Shown piece by piece: positions 2,402 to 52,397 of a DNA stretch of 64,000 nucleotides. How positions within the stretch are numbered: the first letter of the stretch is position 1; each line of letters begins with the position of its first letter. Made by a program: the position numbers and the translations under genes. This stretch comes from Mobula hypostoma (taxonomy: Eukaryota): NCBI RefSeq assembly GCF_963921235.1, contig NC_086097.1, forward strand, positions 64,792,001-64,856,000. Direction: 5' to 3'. The notes beneath the pieces were generated by a model that saw nothing but the letters and a program-made list of their open reading frames with translations, made no database searches and was not told the origin of the DNA.

Positions 2402-3835
2402 TATAATATGTAAAGAAGTGGTCCCAACACCAACACCTGCGGAACACCACTGGACACTGGCAGTCAAACAGAAAAGACCCCCTTTATTCTCCTGCCAGCC
2501 AATCTTCTAACCATGCAAGTATCTTTCCCATAGTATCACAGGCTATTTTCTTGTTATGCATGTGCATCACCTTGTCAAAGGCCTTTTGAAAATCCACACA
2601 AGCAACGTCTACTGACTTTCACTTGTTTATCCTACCTGTTATTTCCTCAAAGAATTCCAACAGATTTGTCAGCAAAATTTCCCCTTAAGGACACATTGCT
2701 GACTTCGGCCTATTTTATATTGGGCCTCCATGTACATTGACCCCTCATCCTTAATAATGGAATTGAACACCTTCCTTGATTTTTGCCTCCCCCTCCATCT
2801 TAAAGAGCAGAGCGACATTGCCAATTTCTCAGTCCTCTGGAACCATTAAAAGATTACTGCTAATGTCTTCAGCTACCTCTTTTAGAATCCTGGGGTGTAG
2901 ACCATATGGTCCAGATGACTTATCTACCTTCAGACTTTTCAGCATCCCAAGCACCTTCATCTTTATAATAGCGACTAATCACATCTGCCCAACATTCTCG
3001 AATTTCTGGCATGTTGCTGGTGTCATCCACAGGGAATACTAATGCAAAATGTGTATTCATTCATTGCCATTTCTCCCTCTCCAGTGTCATTTTTCAGTAG
3101 TCAAATGCCCACTTGCCTCTTTTACTCTTTGTATATCTGAATAAAATCTTTCTGTACCCTCTTACATTATTAACTAACTTACCTTCATATTTCATTTTTT
3201 CTCTCTTTATTGCTTTATTAGTTGCCCTCTGTTGGTTGGCAAAAGTTTTCCAATCCTCTAGCTTCCCATTAATTTTTGCTATATTGTATGCTTTTGCTCT
3301 TATGCTCTTTTAGACTTGCCTTGTCAGCCAGTTGCCTCATCCTCCCTTGAGAACGCTTTTTTTATTGTGACGAACTGATCCTGTGTCATCCGAATTTATT
3401 TCAGATGTCTAGTATCTGGAGTTTGTTCTAGTTGCAATGTTGCAAATGAAGCAATTAATTTCTATACAAGGTTTCAACAGGAGAAAATTCACCAGCTAAT
3501 CTGAAAGTTATTGACACATACTACTAACTCAATGTTACTAATCTATACTTCTAATAAATACTGTCTTAAATTAACAAACACTATCCAGGTCATCAGAAAC
3601 TCCCAGCTAGTAAGAAGCTGTGCCAAATTTGCACATCCACCGGAATGTATCCTTCAGTTTTACCTACATAAAATGGCATTATTTGGCAATCAGTATTTCT
3701 TGAAAACTGAACCAGAGACATTATCAAGAACAATTTCATCAAATTACAAGTGATTTTTAAATGTGGATAATTTTGGATCAACATTACTTGATATTATTTT
3801 CTAAAAACAAGTGGAACGTGTACCACACATACAAA

Positions 3836-3935
3836 ACAACACACACAAAATGCTGCAGGAACTCAGCAGGTCAGACAGCATCTATGGAAATGAATAAACT
3901 GTTGATGGTCATGCCGAGACCCTTCTTGGAACTCA
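3836..3935 (-). repeat. Penelope-like element 3' tail fragment with degraded hammerhead motif
   Basis: acacacaaaatgctgcaggaactcagcaggtcagacagcatctatgg...ccgagacccttc is homologous to 11800-11895. Confidence 0.75.
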
Positions 3936-4339
3936 ACTAAGTCAAGTGGCATCTGCTGAATCTCTTGCGTCTATCAAGTGGAACATGAAGAAGGATTTAC
4001 CTGTATTTAAAAAAATTGTTGAAACTACTTACAGTATATGAAATGCTGCAAACTTGTATTGGTGAATGAGCATTGAAAACTCATCGTTTTAAAATGATAA
4101 ATATTTCTTTCTCCAGGAAATGCAACCAGACACAGAATACTTCTAGAAATAACCTACACCTCATTATATTTATAAAACATTTTAATGCTTAAAAAAAGCA
4201 GGAAAGAGAAAATTGGAAACGAGAGCATAGCTTCATAGATAAGACCTTATTTTCATTTTAGATTCCAGCACTCACGTCGTGTTGTTCAATCTAACCCAGA
4301 GCAAATGTATGCTTTGGACACTTCACTAACCGTAAATTA

Positions 4340-4557
4340 GGAACAAAGAAAAACAAGCTACTAGAGGTACTCAGCAGGTAAAGTAGCATCTGTGGGGATA
4401 GAAGGATGCTTGATATTTCGGATTGAGACCCTGCATTAGGATGAGTGTCTCGATGCAAGCTCTACACCTGAAACATCAATGGATCTTTTGCTGCCACATA
4501 TGCTGCCTGACCAGCTGAGGTGGACCAGAAATATTGTTTTAATTTGCTCCAGATTTT
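4340..4557. mobile_element. Small foldback element made of two opposed Penelope tails
   Basis: Left arm ctcagcaggtaaagtagcatctgtgg...tttcggattgagaccctgcattagg. Right arm ctcgatgcaagctctacacctgaaacatcaa...ccacatatgctgcctgaccagctgag is its degraded reverse complement. Confidence 0.65.
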
Positions 4558-4639
4558 GTACACTCCGTTAGTAATCAAGAAGTTTAAGACTATTTTTAAA
4601 AAAAAACATCAATGAACACTTAACAGCAGGGCTACGGTA

Positions 4640-9430: not shown

Positions 9431-9825
9431 ATTACAGGAGATACTTAGAACAGTGTCCTAGGTCCTGCTGTCTCTGGCTTCTTCATTAATGATCTTCCTT
9501 TGATAACAAGTTGTAAAGATTGTAATGACTACACAATTTTGGTTACAAAACTTCAACAACTGTAAGCAGCAAGAACTGGATAAAAATTCAGGTATGGACA
9601 GATAAAAGGTAAGTAATGTTTGTGCCAGACGGTAGCAAAAAAGAGTGTAATGACATTGAGTGGTATTCCACTCTCAGTATTCTGGGGATACACCATTAAT
9701 CAGATATTCGGCTAAACCAGACTTTAGCTGAGTCCAAATTAGAGGGCAGCTCTGCAGACGCTGAACAAAGATAAAGGAGCCTGATTCTTGGTACCCCATC
9801 CACCCAAAACATTCATTCTCTTCAC

Positions 9826-10170
9826 CAACACAAAATGCTAGATGAAGTCAGCAAATCAGGCAGCATTTATGGAAGGGAGTAAACAGTCAACATTCCGGGC
9901 TGGGGGGGTGAGTGTAGAGGTGACAGAGTACAAGCTGGCAAGTGATAGGAGAATCCAGGAGAGAGGGAAGGTAGGGGAGGGGGGAATGAAGTGAGGATAT
10001 TGGGAAAAGGCTGAAGAAGAAGGAATCTAGTAATAGAGGACAGTGCACCATGGGAGAAAGGAAAGGAGGAATGGCAACAGAGGTGATGGGTGTGTGAGGA
10101 GAAAGAAGAAGTGAAAGGGAAGCCAGAATAGGGAGTGGAAAAATAGAGAAGAGGAGTAGACTGAGGGCAT
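9826..10170 (-). repeat. Penelope-like 3' region fragment
   Basis: aacacaaaatgctagatgaagtcagc...gcagcatttatgg followed by a purine-rich tract homologous to 11800-12190. Confidence 0.65.
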
Positions 10171-10925: not shown

Positions 10926-11863
10926 ACCACTTTTTGTATGCTTTTCCATTCTTGGGTATTTCAGTAATGTTATAAATATGTTGTTTGATTATGCGGTCTT
11001 TGTTTAAATAATTCATTACAGGTTGTATGTAAAGGTACATGAGTAGCATATATCATTACACCACCACATCATAAGTGCATGCCTCACTAAAGTTAAAAAA
11101 TGAAACTGCACGTTATTCCTCGGTCCATGTTATTCTTTCAAATAGTTTTAGGTTCTGGAATTAGAAAACATGACAGTGGTAATGAGAAAGTTTTAAATGA
11201 ACCCGAGACAACTACCTACCTGTTTAAGCACAGTGAGACATTTGATCTTTTTAAAAATAGCAGAATGTATTCTTGGAAGGGAAGAGACGATCAAGTTAAA
11301 AAAGTCAGAAAACAGATGAAAATCACGGGTTCATAAACAGTGCATACCAGGTGATAATAAATAAATAAATAAGCAGAAATGCCTGGCTATGTCAGAAAGA
11401 TAGACATATTTGATTGCACAAGAAATAACTGGTTAAGGTATACTGAATGAATTCAGCCGTACTTTGTAGCAAATGAAATAGTCACTGCAAAGCAAATGCC
11501 AATTTTGCTGAGTGTAATAGGTGGAAGAGCATGTAGTTTGCTTGGAAGTTTAACTGCTTCAACCAAACCAGCCGAAATGAGCTTTTCTGATATCATGAAA
11601 GTAACGCTGGAACATTTAGAACCAAAACCATTGTTGATTGCACAACACTTTAGGCGTCATAACCAGAATCAAAATGAAGGGGAGTCCATTTCACTGTACG
11701 TGGCTGAATTGAAGACTTTGCCTGAGCATTGTCAGTTCAATGATGGGCTTAATGATGCACTGAGAGATCAACAGGAATTCTGCAGATGCTGGAAATTCAA
11801 GCAACACACATCAAAGTTGCTGGTGAACGCAGCAGGCCAGGCAGCATCTGTAGGAAGAGCTGC

Positions 11864-11899
11864 AGTCGACGTTTCAGGCCGAGACCCTTTGTCAGGACT
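11864..11899 (-). ncRNA. Hammerhead motif, left arm, core mutated (CUGACAA)
   Basis: Reverse complement is agtc-CTGACAA-agggtctcggcct-GAAA-c-GTC-gact. Position 11890 changes the conserved G8 to A. Confidence 0.7.
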
Positions 11900-12195
11900 A
11901 ACTGAAGGAAGAGTGAGTAAGGGATTTGAAAGTTGGAGGGGGAGGGGGAGATCCAAAATGATAGGAGAAGACAGGAGGGGGAGGGATAGAGCCAAGAGCT
12001 GGACAGGTGATTGGCAAAAGGGATACGAGAGGATCATGGGACAGGAGGTCCGGGAAGAAAGACAAGGAGGTGGGGGGGACCTAGAGGATGGGCAAGAGGT
12101 ATATTCGGAGGGACAGAGGGAGAAAAAGGAGAGTGAGAGAAAGAATGTGTGCATAAAAATAAGTAACAGATGGGGTACGAGGGGGAGGTGGGGCC

Positions 12196-12504
12196 TTAGC
12201 GGAAGTTAGAGAAGTCAATGTTCATGCCATCAGGTTGGAGGCTACCCAGATGGAATATAAGGTGTTGTTCCTCCAACCTGAGTGTGGCTTCATCTTTACA
12301 GTAGAGGAGGCCGTGGATAAACATGTCAGAATGGGATGTGGAATTAAAATGTGTGGCCACTGGGAGATCCTGCTTTCTCTGGCGGATAGAGCGTAGATGT
12401 TCAGCAAAGCGGTCTCCCAGTCTGCGTCGGGTCTCGCCAATATATAAAAGGCCACATCGGGAGCACCGGACGCAGTATATCACCCCAGTCAACTCAAAGG
12501 TGAA
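12196..12504 (-). pseudogene. Penelope GIY-YIG endonuclease domain, left arm
   Basis: Mirror copy VIYCVRCSRCGLLYIGETRRRL... with a 6-nt in-frame deletion relative to the right arm. Confidence 0.9.
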
Positions 12505-12510
12505 CAACAC

Positions 12511-12825
12511 TTCACCTGTGAGTCGACTGGGGTGATATACTGCGTCCGGTGCTCCGGATGTGGCCTTTTATATATTGGCGAGACCCGACGCAGACTGGGA
12601 GACCGCTTTGCTGAACATCTACGCTCTATCCGCCAGAGAAAGCAGGATCTCCCAGTGGCCACACATTTTAATGCCACATCCCATTCCCATTCTGACATGT
12701 CTATCCACGGCCTCCTCTACTGTAAAGATGAAGCCACACTCAGGTTGGAGGAACAACACCTTATATTCCGTCTGGGTAGCCTCCAACCTGATGGCATGAA
12801 CATCGACTTCTCTAACTTCCACTAA
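12511..12825 (+). pseudogene. Penelope GIY-YIG endonuclease domain (5'-truncated), right arm
   Basis: FTCESTGVIYCVRCSGCGLLYIGETRRRLGDRFAEHLRSI...VATHFN...LGSLQPDGMN shows the IY-CxxC-YIGET pattern of PLE endonucleases. The frame is open to the stop at 12825. Confidence 0.9.
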
Positions 12826-13120
12826 GGCCCCACCTCCCCCTCGTACCCCATCTGTTACTTATTTTTATGCACACATTCTTTCTCTCACTCTCCTTTTTCT
12901 CCCTCTGTCCCTCTGAATATACCTCTTGCCCATCCTCTGGGTTCCCCCCCACCCCTGTCTTTCTTCCCGGACCTCCTGTCCCATGATCCTCTCGTATCCC
13001 TTTTGCCAATCACCTGTCCAGCTCTTGGCTCTATCCCTCCCCCTCCTGTCTTCTCCTATCATTTTGGATCTACCCCTCCCCCTCCAACTTTCAAATCCCT
13101 TACTCACTCTTCCTTCAGTT

Positions 13121-13156
13121 AGTCCTGACGAAGGGTCTCGGCCTGAAACGTCGACT
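13121..13156 (+). ncRNA. Minimal type I hammerhead ribozyme motif (intact core)
   Basis: agtc-CTGACGA-agggtctcggcct-GAAA-c-GTC-gact: stem I agtc/gact, CUGANGA box, stem II agg/cct, GAAA box, vestigial stem III and a GUC cleavage triplet. This is the architecture known from Penelope-like element hammerheads. Confidence 0.8.
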
Positions 13157-16100
13157 GCACCTCTTCCTACAGATGCTGCCTGGCCTGCTGCGTTCACCAG
13201 CAACTTTGATGAGTGTTCACTGAGAGATCATTTAGTTTGTGGAATCTTACAAGAAAGCATTCAAAAATGGCTCCTAACTGAAGCACAACTCACCTTTAAA
13301 AGAGCAGTTGAAGTCATTGTATCAACGGAAACAGCAGAGAAAGACACAATTGAGTTGCAGTCAGGAATGAAAGAGAGCTTGAACAAAACTACAAATGTTG
13401 TATATCCAAACAGAAACCGGCCTGGCCAAACAAAATGTGTTACTGTCGGGCCTCACATACAGTATATCAGACCATTGTAGGTTTAATGGTGAGCTTGCAG
13501 AAAATGCAATAAAGTAGGACACATACAAAAAACATGTCAGGCAGACAAAAATAAATGGATTGCACAGGGAAGAGAAAAAGACAAAAAGTCAAGTTGCAGT
13601 TGCAAAAATAGAACTAATCTTCATGCTGTTGATGAAAAAATCTGATGAGAATGACACAGGACTGAATAGCCTTGAGATTTAAAATGTGAAAGCTAACAAC
13701 AGATGAGCAAAATGGCTTGCCCCAGAAGTGAACAGCAAATTAATTAAAATACAATTGGACACTGGCTCAGCTGCTTCAGTTATTCAACATAATGAATTTG
13801 AATGGCATTTCAAAGATACTGAACTAAAACCTGCCGATATCCAACTAAGAACTTGCTGTGTACTGGAGAAAAACTAACTGTTGTGGGAACGACAGTTGTA
13901 ACAGTGAAATACAATTCCAACAAGCCAAATTGGGTGTTTATGTGGTAAATACTAAAGGACCAGCATTATGGGGCTGTGATTGGCTGAGACAACTACAACT
14001 TGATTTAAGATCCATCCACTATTTGCATACCACATGCCCTGCAAAGGAGTCAACTGAAAGTGAATTAAGAAAGGTACTAGATAATACCACAGTAGTGTTC
14101 AAGGATATCATTGGTAAACTTGAACTTATTGAAGGTAAAACAGTGTTAAATGAAAATGCCACACCCAAGTTTTACAAAGCCCACCTGGTTCCTTATACAA
14201 TCTGTAATAAAGCAGCTGGTGAGCTAGATCACATGGAGCTGAAGGCATTCTTTCCGATGTTGAGTGGAGCCCATGGGCCATGCCAGTGGTCCCAGTAGCT
14301 AAGAAGAATGGGTCTGTCAGCATCTGTGGTAATTTTAAGGTTACCATCAACCCAGTACGAGGACACCTTCTCAAACCTTTCTGGAGGAATCACTTCAGCA
14401 AAATAGACTTAGCTGAAGCCTACCTACAAATGAAGGTGGAAGAAGATGCTGCAGAGAAAAGTTTTTTGTATTTCTCACAATAAGTACTCACAAATAGCTT
14501 TATCACTATAATAGGCTTATTTTTGGAATAGCATCTACATCTGCACTCTGGCAGAAAGCTATAAACCAGGTGCTGCAAGGCTGCCCAGGCACTCAGTTCT
14601 ACCTGGATGGCACAATTGTTACTAGTAAGGATGACAAGGAACATCTCCAAAATCTCAAAACTGTGTTGAAAAGATTAGGAGATTATGGGTTTGGAGCACA
14701 ACCCGACAAATGTGAATTCTTTAAAACAAACATTACTCACTGTGGTCACACCATTGACACACAAGCATTACACAAGTGTGTTGAGAAAAGTTAAATAGTA
14801 GTGTATACCCCAAGGCCAAAGGATGTGTTACAGTTGCAATCCTTTTTAGGATTTGTCAATTGCTATAACAGCTTCCTGCCAAACCTGGCTACTGTGCTTC
14901 ACCCCTTGAACTCATTACTACAGGGAAGAGATGGCAATAGACAAAAAAGTGTGAGGTGGCTTTCCAAGAGGTAAAGGAAATGGTGACATCAGACACTGTA
15001 CTCTCACATTATGATCCATATCGTCCAGTGAAGCTTGCCTGAGATGCCTCGCTTATGGAATAGATGTCATGTCACGTGTTCTGAGTGTGGAAGTATTCCA
15101 TAGCTATTGCATCTCGTTCCCTTACTACTGCAGAGAAAAATTACACACAAATTGACAGAGAGGATTTGTGCCTGGTTTGATGTAAGAAATGTTTCAATCA
15201 GTACTTGTATGGGACAGAGTTTACCCTCATTACTGATCATCATTCAATATTGTCCATTTTCAATCCACAGAAGGGTGTTCCACTATCAGCAGCAGAACAA
15301 ATGCAGAGAGGGGCTTGCTTCCTTGGGAGGACATAAGTAGAAGATTGAATTCAAGAAGACAACTAATCATGGAAATGCTGATGGATTGTCCCATTTACCC
15401 TTGGAAACGGAAATACCTGAAAAAATTACAAAAGAGGGCATTCCTCTTGATGTATTCTCCCTAATGCAAATTGAAAGTCTCCCTATTATGGCAGAGATGA
15501 TCCAAGGGAAACCAGAAAAGATCCCACTCTGTCTCTGGTCTAAATGGCAGCCCAAAATGGCTTGAATGTGCAGCTGAAATCCCAGTTGCTCCATTTTTAC
15601 CAGTGCCGGGATGAACTTGCCCTTGACAGAGGTTGTCTTATGTGGGGATTGACAGTTGTTGCACATTCCAAGCTGAGAGCTAAAGTGCTGGAGGAGCTGC
15701 ATGCCTGTCATCTAGGCTTGGTCAAAATGAAAGCATTGGCTCAAATCATTGCCTGATGGCCTGCGTAGATCAACAGATCGAAGAGCTTGCCATGTTCTGT
15801 TCACCATGCCAACATGTCCAGAAGATGCCAAGAGCAGCACTTCTCCATCCCTGGCAGAGGATTCATGTGGATTTTGCCGATACAGGCACATATTTCTTGC
15901 TAGTAGTGGATGCAGCTACAACATGGCCAAAAGTGTTCACAATAGCCTCCACTACAGCCTGGCACACTGTTGATGGGTTGAGAAGCCTTCTCTCAAGGAC
16001 TGGTGTCCCAGAACACTTAGTCAGTGACAGTGGACCACAGTCTGTTGCGATCATTCCTGAACAGTTTCAGTCATTCCTGAAAATGAATGGAATAAGACAT

Positions 16101-26015: not shown

Positions 26016-26584
26016 AAAAAAAATTAATTCATCACTATTGACAACCTCATTCAGAATGGCTGTATATTACCCTGCCTGGACTGAAGCATGGAAATGTACT
26101 ACCTTTAAACTGGTTGTTTTAAAATTTTCCATTCCAGAGAATTAAAATTCCTCACCTCAGTAGGTGTTATTCAATCAATCTAATTCCCAAATGTGAGTCC
26201 CTCATTTTACAATTTCAATGACTCTGTGTGATTCAAATTTTCCATTGCTGTCCATGTCTTCATAGGTTGATTTTCATTTTATTAATCAAAGTATACATGT
26301 ACAATACAACTCTGATATTTGTTATACAACTCCAGATAGCCAATAAATACAGTTGATGAAAGGCATCAATGAAAAAGGAAATAAACAGGCAAAAAATGCA
26401 GAATGGATCAGTTAATTGCTTTCCCATCTGCTTGTAAACTGGGAAAATTAAGAGCATTTCCTATCAGTCAACAAACCAAAGCTCTCCAGTTATTGATCTA
26501 CTTTTTCTACCTCATCAACCCATGAATCAATGAACCCATGAATGCTAACTCACTATTCCTCTTTTGCACTGTTATTTATTGAAT

Positions 26585-33339: not shown

Positions 33340-33945
33340 TAGGGGTAAGAGGGGAGCCGGAATGGGAAATGGAAAAAGAAAGGATTGGAGGGCGGAAATT
33401 ACCAGGTTAGAGAAAGTTTGAGTCCTGACAAGGGATTCCAGCCCGAAACGTTAACTGATCATTTCCATGGATGCTGCCCGACCTGTTGAGTTCCTCCAGC
33501 GTGTTGTGAGTGTTACTTAGAGAAAGTGATGTTCATACCATCAGGTTGGAGGCTTAGCCAATTGCTTTTACCCCTTCCCATTTACCCTTTCTCTTCACCT
33601 CACCTGCCTTTCACCTCCCTCTGTTGGCCCACTTCCTTCCCTTTCTCCCGTGGTCCACTCTTCTCTCCTATCAGAATCCTTCTTCAGCCCTTTACCTTTT
33701 CCACCTAACACCTCCCAGCTTCTCACTTCCTACCCCTTCCCTGAGCCACCTATCTTCCCCCTCAGCTGGCTTCACCTATTACCTTTCTTGTTTGTACTCC
33801 TTCCCTTCCCCCACCTTCTTATTCTGGCTTGTTCCGGCTTCTTTTCCAGTCTTGATGAAGGGTCTCAGCCTGAAATGTTGACCCTTTATCCCTTTCCATA
33901 GATGTTGCCTGAACTGCTGAGCTTCTCCAGTATTTTGTGTACATG
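33340..33945. mobile_element. Older head-to-head Penelope 3' fragments with a nested 99-bp hammerhead unit
   Basis: Minus arm about 33340-33556 (gatgttcataccatcaggttggaggct, as at 12218-12245). Plus arm about 33557-33945 ends in agtcttgatgaagggtctcagcctgaaatgttgac...tattttgtgt. Confidence 0.75.
33418..33516 (+). mobile_element. 99-bp hammerhead-plus-tail insertion with 11-bp TSD
   Basis: ttagagaaagt occurs at 33407-33417 and 33517-33527. The insert begins ttg-agtc-CTGACAA-gggattccagccc-GAAA-c-GTT-aact. Confidence 0.8.
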
Positions 33946-41694: not shown

Positions 41695-43344
41695 CAGGTT
41701 TCCCCCACCATCTGAAGGTAGAGCGTTCCCATGAAATGGTTCGTAAACCGGAATGTCGTAAAGTGAAGAATCAATTACCATTTATTTATATGGGCAAAAT
41801 TTGTGAGCATTCGCAGACCCAGAAAATAACCTGCCAAATAACACATAAAACCTAAAATAACAGTAACATATAGTAAAAGCGGGAACGGTATGATAAAATA
41901 CACAGCCTATATAAAGTAGAAATACTTTTCTATAATCATTGCCGCACTGTTCTCCGTAGCGAAAATCTCACGCAAGCACTCTCAGCAGGAACACAGCGCA
42001 AGCCTCTCGGCAAAAACACTCTCTTCAATAACCTTTAAGCTATGAAGCTGTCAAATCATACCAAATAACACATAAAAATACACAGCCTATATAAAGTAGA
42101 AATAATGTATGTACAGTGTAGTATCACTTACCAGAGTTGTGAAGACAGCGCCATGCACACTGATGATGGTGTGTTAGGCTGAGTCGTCGGAGGTTGGGGT
42201 GGTGCAGTGGACCCCAACCTCTGGGCAGAGAACCGATACCAATCCGCGAAGAATGCAGTAGTGCAGCAGTAGCCGGGACGCACCCAGCACATCTTTAGGA
42301 AAAAAGCCTAAATAAACAAGCTAATTAATTAGGTGCCGCCCGGCACGTAAATGTCAGCACAGATCAGAGGCTACACAATCAGCAATCGCCTCTGATCTGG
42401 GCCGACATTTGCGTGCCAGCAGCACCTAATTAATTAGCTTGTTTATTTCGGCTTTTTTCTTAAAGATGAGCTGGGTGCATCCCGGCTTCCGCTGCATTTT
42501 CTGCAGCAATGTATTGGTCCGCGGCCCAGGGGTTGGGGTGGTGGGACACTGGGGTGTAATCTCATCGTCGTCTGTTTCCATCAGGGCAGGCAGGTCATCT
42601 TCTTCTACGTCTGCCTGCCTCGATGTCGAAGGTCAAGGTTCCTCGTCTGCTGTGGCTGATGTGGAAGGCTTGAAAGATGACAGTATGCTTGACTGCTTAG
42701 CCTCGCACATTTTTCTATCATACAGTTCTTTGTAAGCACTCAAACCATCCTGCAAATATGCCCTAAACCTACGTAACCTTTCAAAATTAAAGCCGTACTT
42801 TTCTGCAATCATTGTTGTCAATTGCAGCGAAAATCTCATGCAGTTGCTTCACGTTCAGTTCCTGGACGACTTCACTTTCGGTCTGTTCGTTACTGCATTT
42901 GGTTTCGATTGTTATCCTTTCCTCTTCCAATTGCATCAGCTCTTCATCTATCAGTTCTTGATCATGGGATGCCAAAAGCTCTTCAACATCACCTTCGTCA
43001 ACTTCCACAAGCCAAACTCACTTTGTCCTTACTTAGTTCACCACGATCAAAATGCTTAATTATGTCTAGTTCTACGCTAAGTGTAACACCCTTACGAGCT
43101 CTTTCAGGCTTTTCCAATACCTTTGAACTCATCTTGCTAACGGTTGCTCACAGGCACGTGTTTAAGCAATGCCGGCGAGAGTGCAGTTCCGAATCCGGGG
43201 GAGGAGCTTGGCTGCTCGGGGCGTGTGCTGCCTTTTTTCATAACAGTGAAAACACCTTCTGTTAGCGAAAACAGGTAACTAATGTAGGTCTTTCATAACA
43301 GCAAGGTTTCGTAAAGCGAACGTTCGAAAAACGGGGGACACCTG
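41695..43344 (-). mobile_element. Tigger/pogo DNA transposon, internally deleted
   Basis: TIRs caggtttccccc and gggggacacctg with TA flanks. The minus strand has an N-terminal HTH-like segment (RARKGVTLSVELDIIKHFDRGE) fused to the acidic C-terminus EVDEGDVEELLASHDQELIDEELMQLEEE; no DDE core is visible. Confidence 0.85.
42205..42538. repeat. About 330-bp imperfect palindrome (hAT-MITE-like) inside the Tigger
   Basis: The arms pair across a loop at about 42372-42387 (cagatcagaggc / gcctctgatctg; aaataaacaagctaattaattaggtgc / gcacctaattaattagcttgtttattt). The ends are cagtggaccccaacc / ggttgggg. Confidence 0.85.
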
Positions 43345-52110: not shown

Positions 52111-52124
52111 TCACATCAGTCCTC

Positions 52125-52397
52125 ATAAACCCAAGAGATTCCACAGATGCTGGAAATCCAGAGCAACACACTCAAATTGCAGAAGGAACTCAGCAGGTCA
52201 AGCAGCATCTATAGAGGGGAATAAGGAGTCGACGCTTCGGGCCAAGACTGTCTATCAGGACTCGCTTCATCAGGAATTGCCCCAAATCATTGAGTATTTA
52301 TTCCCTGTCATAGATGCTGACTGACTTGCTGAATTCTTCCAATATTTTGTGTGTGTTGTTCAAGATTTCCATCATCTGCAGATTCTCTTGTGTTTAG
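52125..52397. mobile_element. About 270-bp foldback of two opposed Penelope tails
   Basis: The left end aaacccaagagattccacagatgctggaaatc pairs with the right end gatttccatcatctgcagattctcttgtgttt. Degraded hammerhead motifs meet at the centre, about 52262. Confidence 0.8.

What the first reader, a model, noticed from the sequence alone, without database searches (positions are those of the whole stretch)
33407..33527. 99-bp hammerhead-only mobile unit with a perfect 11-bp TSD
Seen: an insert consisting only of the hammerhead motif plus the ~60-nt PLE tail, flanked by ttagagaaagt on both sides. It starts 3 nt before stem I and sits antisense inside another Penelope relic. Inference: this is either an extreme 5' truncation where reverse transcription stalled at the ribozyme structure, or a minimal non-autonomous, retrozyme-like RNA mobilised by the PLE protein.
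Basis: partly seen in the sequence, partly recalled or inferred. Interest (0 to 1): 0.7.

Follow-up and report, generated by a model that had tools for sequence, protein, structure and literature searches.

The report
Penelope front-end stub with decayed hammerhead
This 99-base insert is a real, separately landed piece of a Penelope-type jumping gene with a decayed ribozyme motif; it is likely a DNA copy of just the capped front tip of the element's RNA rather than a self-spreading mini-element, which would give a testable clue to how these poorly understood elements copy themselves.

Summary
Observation confirmed. A 99-bp insert (33418-33516) lies between exact 11-bp repeats, antisense inside the last codons of an older Penelope-like element (PLE) in ray-like DNA. 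Removing it restores the host. Neither proposed reading holds up well. The hammerhead is decayed (G8 lost, stem I cut to 3 bp). The 'diagnostic' stem II looks private: the locus contig runs unbroken at single-copy depth, and relatives read GAAGGG there. Many relatives carry more pLTR upstream. Reverse transcription copied the whole ribozyme, so it did not stall at it. Still, 5' ends do cluster here: 6 of 10 arms in the window, 54-74% alike, start at or inside the hammerhead. Best reading (0.55): reverse transcription, primed at the internal PLE start site, ran off the capped 5' end of an RNA beginning at A33421, leaving G33420. Rival: ordinary truncation (0.25). No RNA data or genome-wide count was obtainable. 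This scan has noted the same pattern many times on other DNA, including this genome; those unchecked notes gave me the cap idea.

The parts
33407..33417 (.). Left copy of the 11-bp target-site duplication; host DNA (codons T-F-S-N of the host ORF end on the minus strand)
33418..33516 (+). 99-bp insert: 3' end of a PLE pseudo-LTR from 3 nt before hammerhead stem I to the short 3' end (no 30-40-nt tail)
33418..33420 (+). 5' junction TTG. G33420 stands where listed relatives with upstream pLTR have C: candidate cap-templated G (inferred) or a later substitution
33420..33457 (+). Decayed minimal type I hammerhead: stem I 33420-24/33453-57 (3 of 5 pairs), core CTGACAA 33425-31 (G8 lost), stem II 33432-35/33441-44 (3 of 4 pairs), GAAAC-GTT 33445-52
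33458..33516 (+). pLTR segment downstream of the hammerhead, ending at the shorter of the two family 3' ends; the first two letters (TT) of the right repeat also fit the element
33517..33527 (.). Right copy of the 11-bp target-site duplication
33341..33562 (-). Host: inverted segment of an older PLE (end of the GIY-YIG ORF and start of the pLTR), interrupted by the insert; limits approximate
33568..33942 (+). Host: sense continuation of the same pLTR with its own decayed hammerhead (33848-33885). The 8-mer TTACCCCT stands at both inversion breakpoints; limits approximate

Best explanation
The insert is a separately integrated 99-bp copy of the end of a Penelope-like element's pseudo-LTR, likely made when the element's protein cut the target, primed reverse transcription at its internal start site about 85 nt downstream of hammerhead stem II, copied the uncut ribozyme and ran off the capped 5' end of an RNA that likely begins at A33421. 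SHOWN: insertion with an 11-bp duplication into a PLE ORF end; descent from an abundant PLE subfamily that has pLTR sequence upstream; two family 3' ends about 32 nt apart; clustering of 5' ends at the hammerhead in unrelated copies; decay of the ribozyme. INFERRED: priming by the PLE protein at an internal site (from the Anolis element in vitro); a transcription start at A33421 (TC-A-GTCC fits the initiator consensus YYANWYY, recalled); G33420 as the footprint of the cap. The ribozyme would be a passenger: the unit is a strong-stop-like by-product of a full element, not a replicon of its own.
For: (1) 3' geometry matches the one PLE studied in vitro. In Anolis PAc the ORF starts at stem II, RT starts 111-118 nt further on and at a second site one 30-40-nt tail away, product length is set by the template's 5' end, and uncut RNA is the main substrate (PMC11167929). 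Here, stem II to 3' end is 85 nt in the insert, 87 in the 13.1k arm and 119 in the tailed 11.8k arm. (2) 6 of 10 arms (4 of 7 events) have 5' limits 82-99 nt from the short 3' end, none between 100 and about 290. Without the focal copy it is 3 of 6 events, P 0.002-0.012 under a log-uniform length model (bins chosen after seeing the data). (3) These short arms are 54-74% alike (mean 63.5%, against 66.0% short-to-long), so the stop point recurs across families. (4) G stands directly before the AGT start in 4 of 5 short arms that keep it (33.4k and 52.2k clean, 3.9k and 4.5k ambiguous) and in 0 of 3 long arms. An extra G from the cap marks most full-length L1-driven insertions (PMC11702581, passage). 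(5) In public contigs 6 of 31 listed paralogous pieces extend to 33420 or further. Agreement of the loose ends before 33421 is only 0.48-0.61, which a rough simulation puts at a quarter to a half sharing one upstream sequence. (6) The same machinery left 13-bp and 10-bp duplications at two other copies.
Against: No transcript end was observed. TT at 33418-19 equals the pLTR's own letters at -3 and -2 in two of four runs (loose ends end in TTC in X5, X10; also X13; TAC in X1). The junction can therefore be a plain truncation at -3 with a later C-to-G change; a cap G alone does not explain the two T's. 23 of 31 listed paralogous pieces start at 33421 without the G, and none of the 7 from the window's own species extends to 33420. 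The window sample is small (7 events), 8 of the 10 arms were in the search model, and the 9.9k arm, counted as long, has an internal deletion ending inside the hammerhead. The same letters (pyrimidine tract + CAG) also fit a splice acceptor. Contigs cannot give a true 5'-end histogram.
Confidence: 0.55

Rival explanations
1. Ordinary 5' truncation of a long PLE transcript: reverse transcription started at the usual 3' site and was ended, by drop-off or repair, at the edge of the pyrimidine-rich pLTR; G33420 is a later substitution.
For: Frequent 5' truncation is a known PLE trait (PMC8557442 passages), and solo minimal hammerheads were already ascribed to truncated PLEs (PMC4209133). Relatives carry a pLTR upstream (...CCCCTTCCCTCT(T/A)C in 3 of 4 runs) and the insert's first two letters fit it. 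The insert differs from its relatives at about 9 of 99 places (pieced; closest listed pieces differ at 5-6 of 56), so one more change is not remarkable.
Against: Does not predict the cluster of 5' ends in unrelated copies or the recurring G at -1.
Confidence: 0.25
2. An independent non-autonomous mini-element (retrozyme- or SINE-like) made of hammerhead plus pLTR end, copied from short master loci by the PLE protein.
For: It has its own TSD and discrete ends; non-autonomous PLE derivatives exist (Chlamys derivatives; vertebrate non-LTR retrozymes including one chondrichthyan, bioRxiv 10.64898/2026.07.22.740005).
Against: Monomer, not tandem; core G8 lost; the locus contig runs unbroken through the whole hammerhead to 33465 at single-copy depth 24.5, so no other locus in that run shares these 31-letter words; relatives read GAAGGG before 33436; short arms in the window form no supported clade (1 of 7 inner branches supported).
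Confidence: 0.08
3. The 5' limit marks a splice acceptor: stem I begins at the end of a 5'-UTR intron, as in Drosophila virilis Penelope, and copies end there through splicing intermediates or a very short first exon ending in GAG.
For: In D. virilis the intron end maps to the 5' end of helix I (PMC4209133) and lies close to the start site (PMC2377424 passages). All long arms and relatives show a pyrimidine tract + YAG at this place.
Against: Short arms share no first-exon sequence beyond G-AG (TTG, GCG, ATG, TTG upstream). No splicing data.
Confidence: 0.07
4. Reverse transcription stalled at the folded ribozyme.
For: The 5' end is next to a structured motif.
Against: The whole ribozyme was copied, whereas a stall would end the cDNA at the 3' foot of stem I (about 33457). 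The minimal hammerhead is weakly structured even in the near-intact 13.1k copy (z -0.18). No arm in the window starts at the 3' foot or at the cleavage site (three weak hits at decoy level were set aside).
Confidence: 0.05

Closest known systems
Endonuclease-positive Penelope-like elements, Neptune/Nematis type (PMC8557442 passages; PMC3846280 passages)
   Same: GIY-YIG with CxxC between GIY and YIG in the window's young copy; CX4CxxC linker in its 93% relative P0002; hammerhead in the pLTR, optional 30-40-nt tail, head-to-head arms, 10-13-bp TSDs.
   Different: The insert holds no ORF and only 99 bp of pLTR. A preferred 5' stop at the hammerhead's front edge was not found in the papers read. 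The ORF of the insert's own subfamily was not seen, so its clade is inferred.
Poseidon of Anolis carolinensis, PAc (Frangieh et al. 2024, PMC11167929; parts 1-2 of 4 read)
   Same: Two 3' ends one tail apart, the outer about 111-119 nt from stem II; uncut RNA as template; G8 needed for cleavage.
   Different: Different clade. The paper maps RT start sites, not natural 5' ends or the transcription start; no short genomic run-off copies are described in the parts read.
Minimal type I hammerheads of metazoan PLEs (Cervera and De la Pena 2014, PMC4209133; parts 1-2 of 4 read)
   Same: Short stem I, no real stem III (palindromic ACGT), mostly found as single motifs ascribed to truncated PLEs.
   Different: This copy has lost G8 and two stem I pairs; stem II is 4 bp in relatives, not 7-8.
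Non-LTR retrozymes (PMC7229834 passages; bioRxiv 10.64898/2026.07.22.740005, parts 1-3 of 5 read)
   Same: Non-coding, hammerhead-bearing, related to PLE pLTRs; TSDs longer than 4 bp when present; monomers occur.
   Different: Retrozymes are tandem repeats (mostly 150-450 bp) with complete hammerheads that yield circular RNA. This is a single 99-bp unit with a broken core, and its ends are not at the cleavage site.
Full-length L1-driven insertions with a cap-derived extra G (PMC11702581, passage)
   Same: Proposed origin of G33420.
   Different: There RT starts at the RNA's 3' poly(A); here it would start about 100 nt from the 5' end, so the complete cDNA is tiny.

Membership tests
EN+ Penelope-like element (fragment) | pLTR with hammerhead lying downstream of a GIY-YIG ORF on the same strand | tested here: met
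   Insert aligns to the pLTR ends of the 13.1k/11.8k arms (65-66%) and of the host (70%); the 13.1k arm follows a GIY-YIG frame (PF01541, E 3.8e-5).
EN+ Penelope-like element (fragment) | Optional 30-40-nt tail: two 3' ends in the family | tested here: met
   Short ends at 85-87 nt and a long end at 119 nt from stem II; relatives of the insert run on behind 33518.
EN+ Penelope-like element (fragment) | Target-site duplication from endonuclease cleavage | tested here: met
   11 bp here; 13 and 10 bp at two other copies; none over 5 bp at four others.
EN+ Penelope-like element (fragment) | RT + GIY-YIG ORF in the insert's own subfamily; Neptune-type linker | tested here: inconclusive
   Linker CX4CxxC seen only in P0002, a relative of the 13.1k family; only about 20 nt upstream of stem I were seen for the insert's subfamily.
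Non-LTR retrozyme | Tandem units, each with a complete type I hammerhead | tested here: not met
   Single unit; no second copy over 74% alike in the window; core CTGACAA.
Non-LTR retrozyme | Unit RNA defined by cleavage sites; linear and circular RNA expressed | not testable with these tools
   No raw RNA reads; the insert's ends do not coincide with the cleavage site (33452/33453).
Independent non-autonomous PLE derivative (mini-element) | Short copies share diagnostic variants and form a clade | tested here: not met
   Stem II variant in a single-copy unbroken contig, relatives read GAAGGG; short arms 54-74% alike, no supported clade. Tested on 10 arms and on contig tables, not on a whole assembly.
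Independent non-autonomous PLE derivative (mini-element) | Sharp common 5' end | tested here: inconclusive
   Cluster in 6 of 10 arms, but across unrelated families; no genome-wide histogram possible.
Active minimal type I hammerhead | Core CUGANGA / GAAA / NUH with intact C3-G8 pair and stems I and II | tested here: not met
   G8 is A; stem I 3 of 5, stem II 3 of 4 pairs. The same G8-to-A change separates the 11.8k arm from its 97% twin at 13.1k, as expected of CpG decay. G8C abolishes PAc cleavage; this copy was not assayed.

The most novel reading that the evidence does not exclude
PLEs in this ray lineage start transcription at the first base of hammerhead stem I and prime reverse transcription only 85-120 nt downstream. 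Their first product is then a strong-stop-like cDNA of the capped leader, which either jumps template to build partial tandems and fold-backs or is integrated as it stands. This insert would be such an intermediate frozen in the genome, with the cap recorded as G33420.
Probability: 0.45. Interest if true: 0.7.

Novelty: new variant of a known kind. Interest (0 to 1): 0.4.

Why it matters
As an object it is ordinary: one dead stub among very many PLE pLTR ends. What could matter is where it starts. How PLEs make pseudo-LTRs, tails and inverted arms is still open, and the only in vitro study shows internal priming without saying what happens at the RNA's 5' end. If stubs like this are run-off copies to the cap, they map the PLE transcription start from DNA alone and imply a retrovirus-like strong-stop step in a target-primed element. 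They would also explain many solo minimal hammerheads in animal genomes without invoking self-replicating ribozyme units. One locus and a 64-kb window support this only moderately.

Tried and rejected
Searches for stray copies with tail motifs found 0 matches in metagenome contigs, viral contigs and prokaryote genomes. Rfam gave no hammerhead hit at E up to 1 in the window; its 3 hits were miRNA models on a hairpin at 42.3k. A strict CTGANGA..GAAA pattern gave 7 matches against 5.6 expected and misses the insert. Age and empty site in related species: contigs of organisms B and D cover the left flank to 33370, and B, C and D cover the right flank. No listed contig of B, D or F covered 33385-33412, and no joint skipping the insert was among the 15 of 835 joints shown. 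A hole proves nothing, so presence or absence in relatives is unresolved. No RNA holder was listed; this is no evidence on expression. Depth profiles were not used as copy numbers or as a truncation profile, because divergence of the reference and contig breaks shape them. Three weak profile hits (E 0.09-0.14, no better than shuffled decoys) were dropped before counting 10 arms. The tree of 10 arms was unresolved. Microhomology at the 5' junction: none beyond chance (host AAAGT versus pLTR letters ending CTC). A downstream promoter element at canonical spacing was looked for by eye and not seen. A look-up of earlier findings by sequence gave nothing. PMC10018344 (one passage) was not relevant.

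Full report
THE OBSERVATION. The insert spans 33418-33516 (99 bp), with TTAGAGAAAGT on both sides. Exact repeats of 11 bp or more at this spacing occur 3 times in the 64-kb window, this one included, and 1 of 1500 random 99-bp intervals had one at both ends (not traced). The decisive check is the empty site. Without the insert and one repeat, the minus strand reads WLSLQPDGMNITFSNL. This matches the end of a GIY-YIG frame at 12526-12825, whose best protein relatives are from Mobula, Hypanus and Leucoraja. Host-family contigs join the two sides in the same way (loose ends before 33520 in two runs). So the window is ray-like DNA, the host is a PLE relic, and the repeat is a true target-site duplication. 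The host itself is an inverted piece (about 33341-33562) plus a sense piece (about 33568-33942), with TTACCCCT at both breakpoints. The insert is antisense to the first piece.

THE RIBOZYME IS DECAYED. The core reads CTGACAA, not CTGANGA. Stem I keeps 3 of 5 pairs and stem II 3 of 4. The predicted fold is not a hammerhead and is no more stable than shuffles (z 0.41), whereas the 13.1k copy folds stems I and II. The same G8-to-A change separates the 11.8k arm from its 97% twin at 13.1k, as CpG decay would. In Anolis PAc a G8 change abolishes cleavage, and cleavage is not needed for insertion in vitro.

THE INSERT BELONGS TO AN ABUNDANT SUBFAMILY WITH LONGER FORMS. Laying public contigs on 33385-33476 gave 627, 538, 540 and 280 records in four runs of four organisms. 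Of 31 listed paralogous pieces (32 of 1986 pieces shown), 30 align without gaps, with 5-11 differences in 54-60 letters. Loose ends before 33436 read ...GATGAAGGG in the two runs where that row was shown, so relatives have GAAGGG where the insert has AAGGGA. The locus's own contig runs unbroken for 377 bases to 33465 at depth 24.5, like the unique flanks, and is the only record of 627 at 99% or more. Caveat: each 31-letter word carries several changes, so single changes may be shared. Loose ends before 33421 end in a pyrimidine-rich CCCCTTCCCTCT(T/A)C in 3 of 4 runs. By eye the X10 consensus matches the host pLTR at 20 of 30 places once the family letters are applied, so many relatives continue into a pLTR. 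On the 3' side relatives continue TT-TGACCCCAGCATCTGCAGAG: the insert ends at the shorter family end, with two letters shared with the target.

BUT 5' ENDS DO CLUSTER. A profile search found 10 arms with E below 1e-8 (8 were in the model, 3 weak hits at decoy level dropped). Four are long (11.8k, 13.1k, 33.9k, and 9.9k with an internal deletion). Six start at or within the hammerhead (3.9k, 4.4k, 4.5k, 33.4k, 52.2k, 52.3k), four of them as head-to-head pairs with no room for more pLTR. As events this is 4 of 7, or 3 of 6 without the focal copy; P is 0.002-0.012 under a log-uniform length model with bins chosen afterwards. The short arms are 54-74% alike, no closer to each other than to long arms, and form no supported clade. 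So the stop point recurs across families: it points to a property of the RNA or the reaction, not to one mini-element. Agreement of the loose ends before 33421 (0.60, 0.54, 0.61, 0.48 for 17, 16, 27, 12 records) is well below what one shared upstream sequence would give (0.91 in a rough simulation; 0.56-0.59 for half). That fits a mixture of long copies and copies ending here, but also a mixture of pLTR families, and the tool's formula is unknown.

MECHANISM. A stall at the ribozyme does not fit, because the enzyme would meet the 3' strand of stem I first and the insert contains the whole motif. Self-cleavage does not fit, because the cut lies at 33452/33453. The in vitro PAc work offers another route: RT starts inside the RNA, 111-118 nt from stem II and at a second site one tail away, and product length follows the template's 5' end. 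The distances here are 85-87 and 119 nt. If the transcript starts just before stem I, the complete cDNA from the front copy of the priming site is about 100 nt (130 with the tail). The pLTR reads TC-A-GTCC there, which fits the initiator consensus (recalled). G precedes AGT in 4 of 5 short arms that keep the start (two clean, two ambiguous) and in 0 of 3 long arms. An extra G is the cap footprint of full-length L1-driven insertions. In contigs, 6 of 31 listed pieces extend to 33420 or beyond, and a 5-record loose-end consensus in one relative reads TTTTG-AGTCC. Against this: 23 of 31 pieces start at 33421, none of the 7 from the window's own species reaches 33420, the insert's TT also fits the pLTR, the same letters fit a splice acceptor as in D. 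virilis, and no RNA end was seen. I give run-off to a capped start 0.55, plain truncation 0.25, mini-element 0.08, splice-related end 0.07, stall 0.05.

COMPARISON WITH WHAT IS KNOWN. It works like an EN+ PLE insertion and is a fragment of one. The neighbouring young family is Neptune/Nematis type by its linker motif. It fails the tests for a non-LTR retrozyme (no tandem, no complete core) and for an active hammerhead. Solo minimal hammerheads from truncated PLEs, inverted arms, tails and TSDs of this size are in print. A preferred 5' end at the front of the hammerhead, with a cap G, was not found in five literature searches or in the texts read: PMC11167929 and PMC4209133 parts 1-2 of 4; bioRxiv 10.64898/2026.07.22.740005 parts 1-3 of 5; passages only of PMC8557442, PMC3846280, PMC2377424, PMC7229834, PMC11702581. 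No supplements were seen. Fig. S2 of PMC11167929 (genomic coverage of the pLTR-ORF junction) could bear on this, and the library lacks most subscription papers.

EARLIER NOTES OF THIS SCAN. My recorded reading was plain truncation (65%). They are leads, not support; their genome-wide counts were not verified here.

VERDICT. Real insertion, ordinary family, dead ribozyme, no sign of an independent unit. Its start point is moderately good evidence for an undescribed step of PLE copying. Interest 0.4; 0.7 if the strong-stop reading is shown.

Noticed in passing
window 11758-13230: Young head-to-head PLE palindrome (arms 95.6% alike, centre near 12510) with a 13-bp TSD; one arm has the tail, the other not; an open GIY-YIG C-terminal frame at 12526-12825.
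   Followed up: partly
window 52118-52394: Short head-to-head pair of hammerhead-bounded arms (72% alike), both tailed, with an extra inverted fragment of the hammerhead 5' core at the centre; no TSD over 5 bp found.
   Followed up: partly
window 4335-4565: Old head-to-head pair of hammerhead-bounded arms (61% alike) meeting at about 4443-4446.
   Followed up: partly
window 3808-3984: About 157-bp PLE insertion with a 10-bp TSD: an inverted tail piece and a rearranged stretch in front of a hammerhead-bounded arm.
   Followed up: partly
window 33341-33942: The host relic has a 5' inversion with an 8-bp duplication at the breakpoints, like twin priming in L1; no TSD found.
   Followed up: partly
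window 9825-10170: PLE pLTR on the minus strand with an internal deletion that removes stem I and the 5' core of the hammerhead.
   Followed up: no
window 42211-42539: About 330-bp imperfect hairpin (arms of 48, 78 and 30 nt, 73-91% complementary), MITE-like; it gives weak miRNA-model hits below the gathering score.
   Followed up: no
window 26122-26246: Exact 12-bp direct repeat 113 bp apart in AT-rich DNA; no element recognised between the copies.
   Followed up: no
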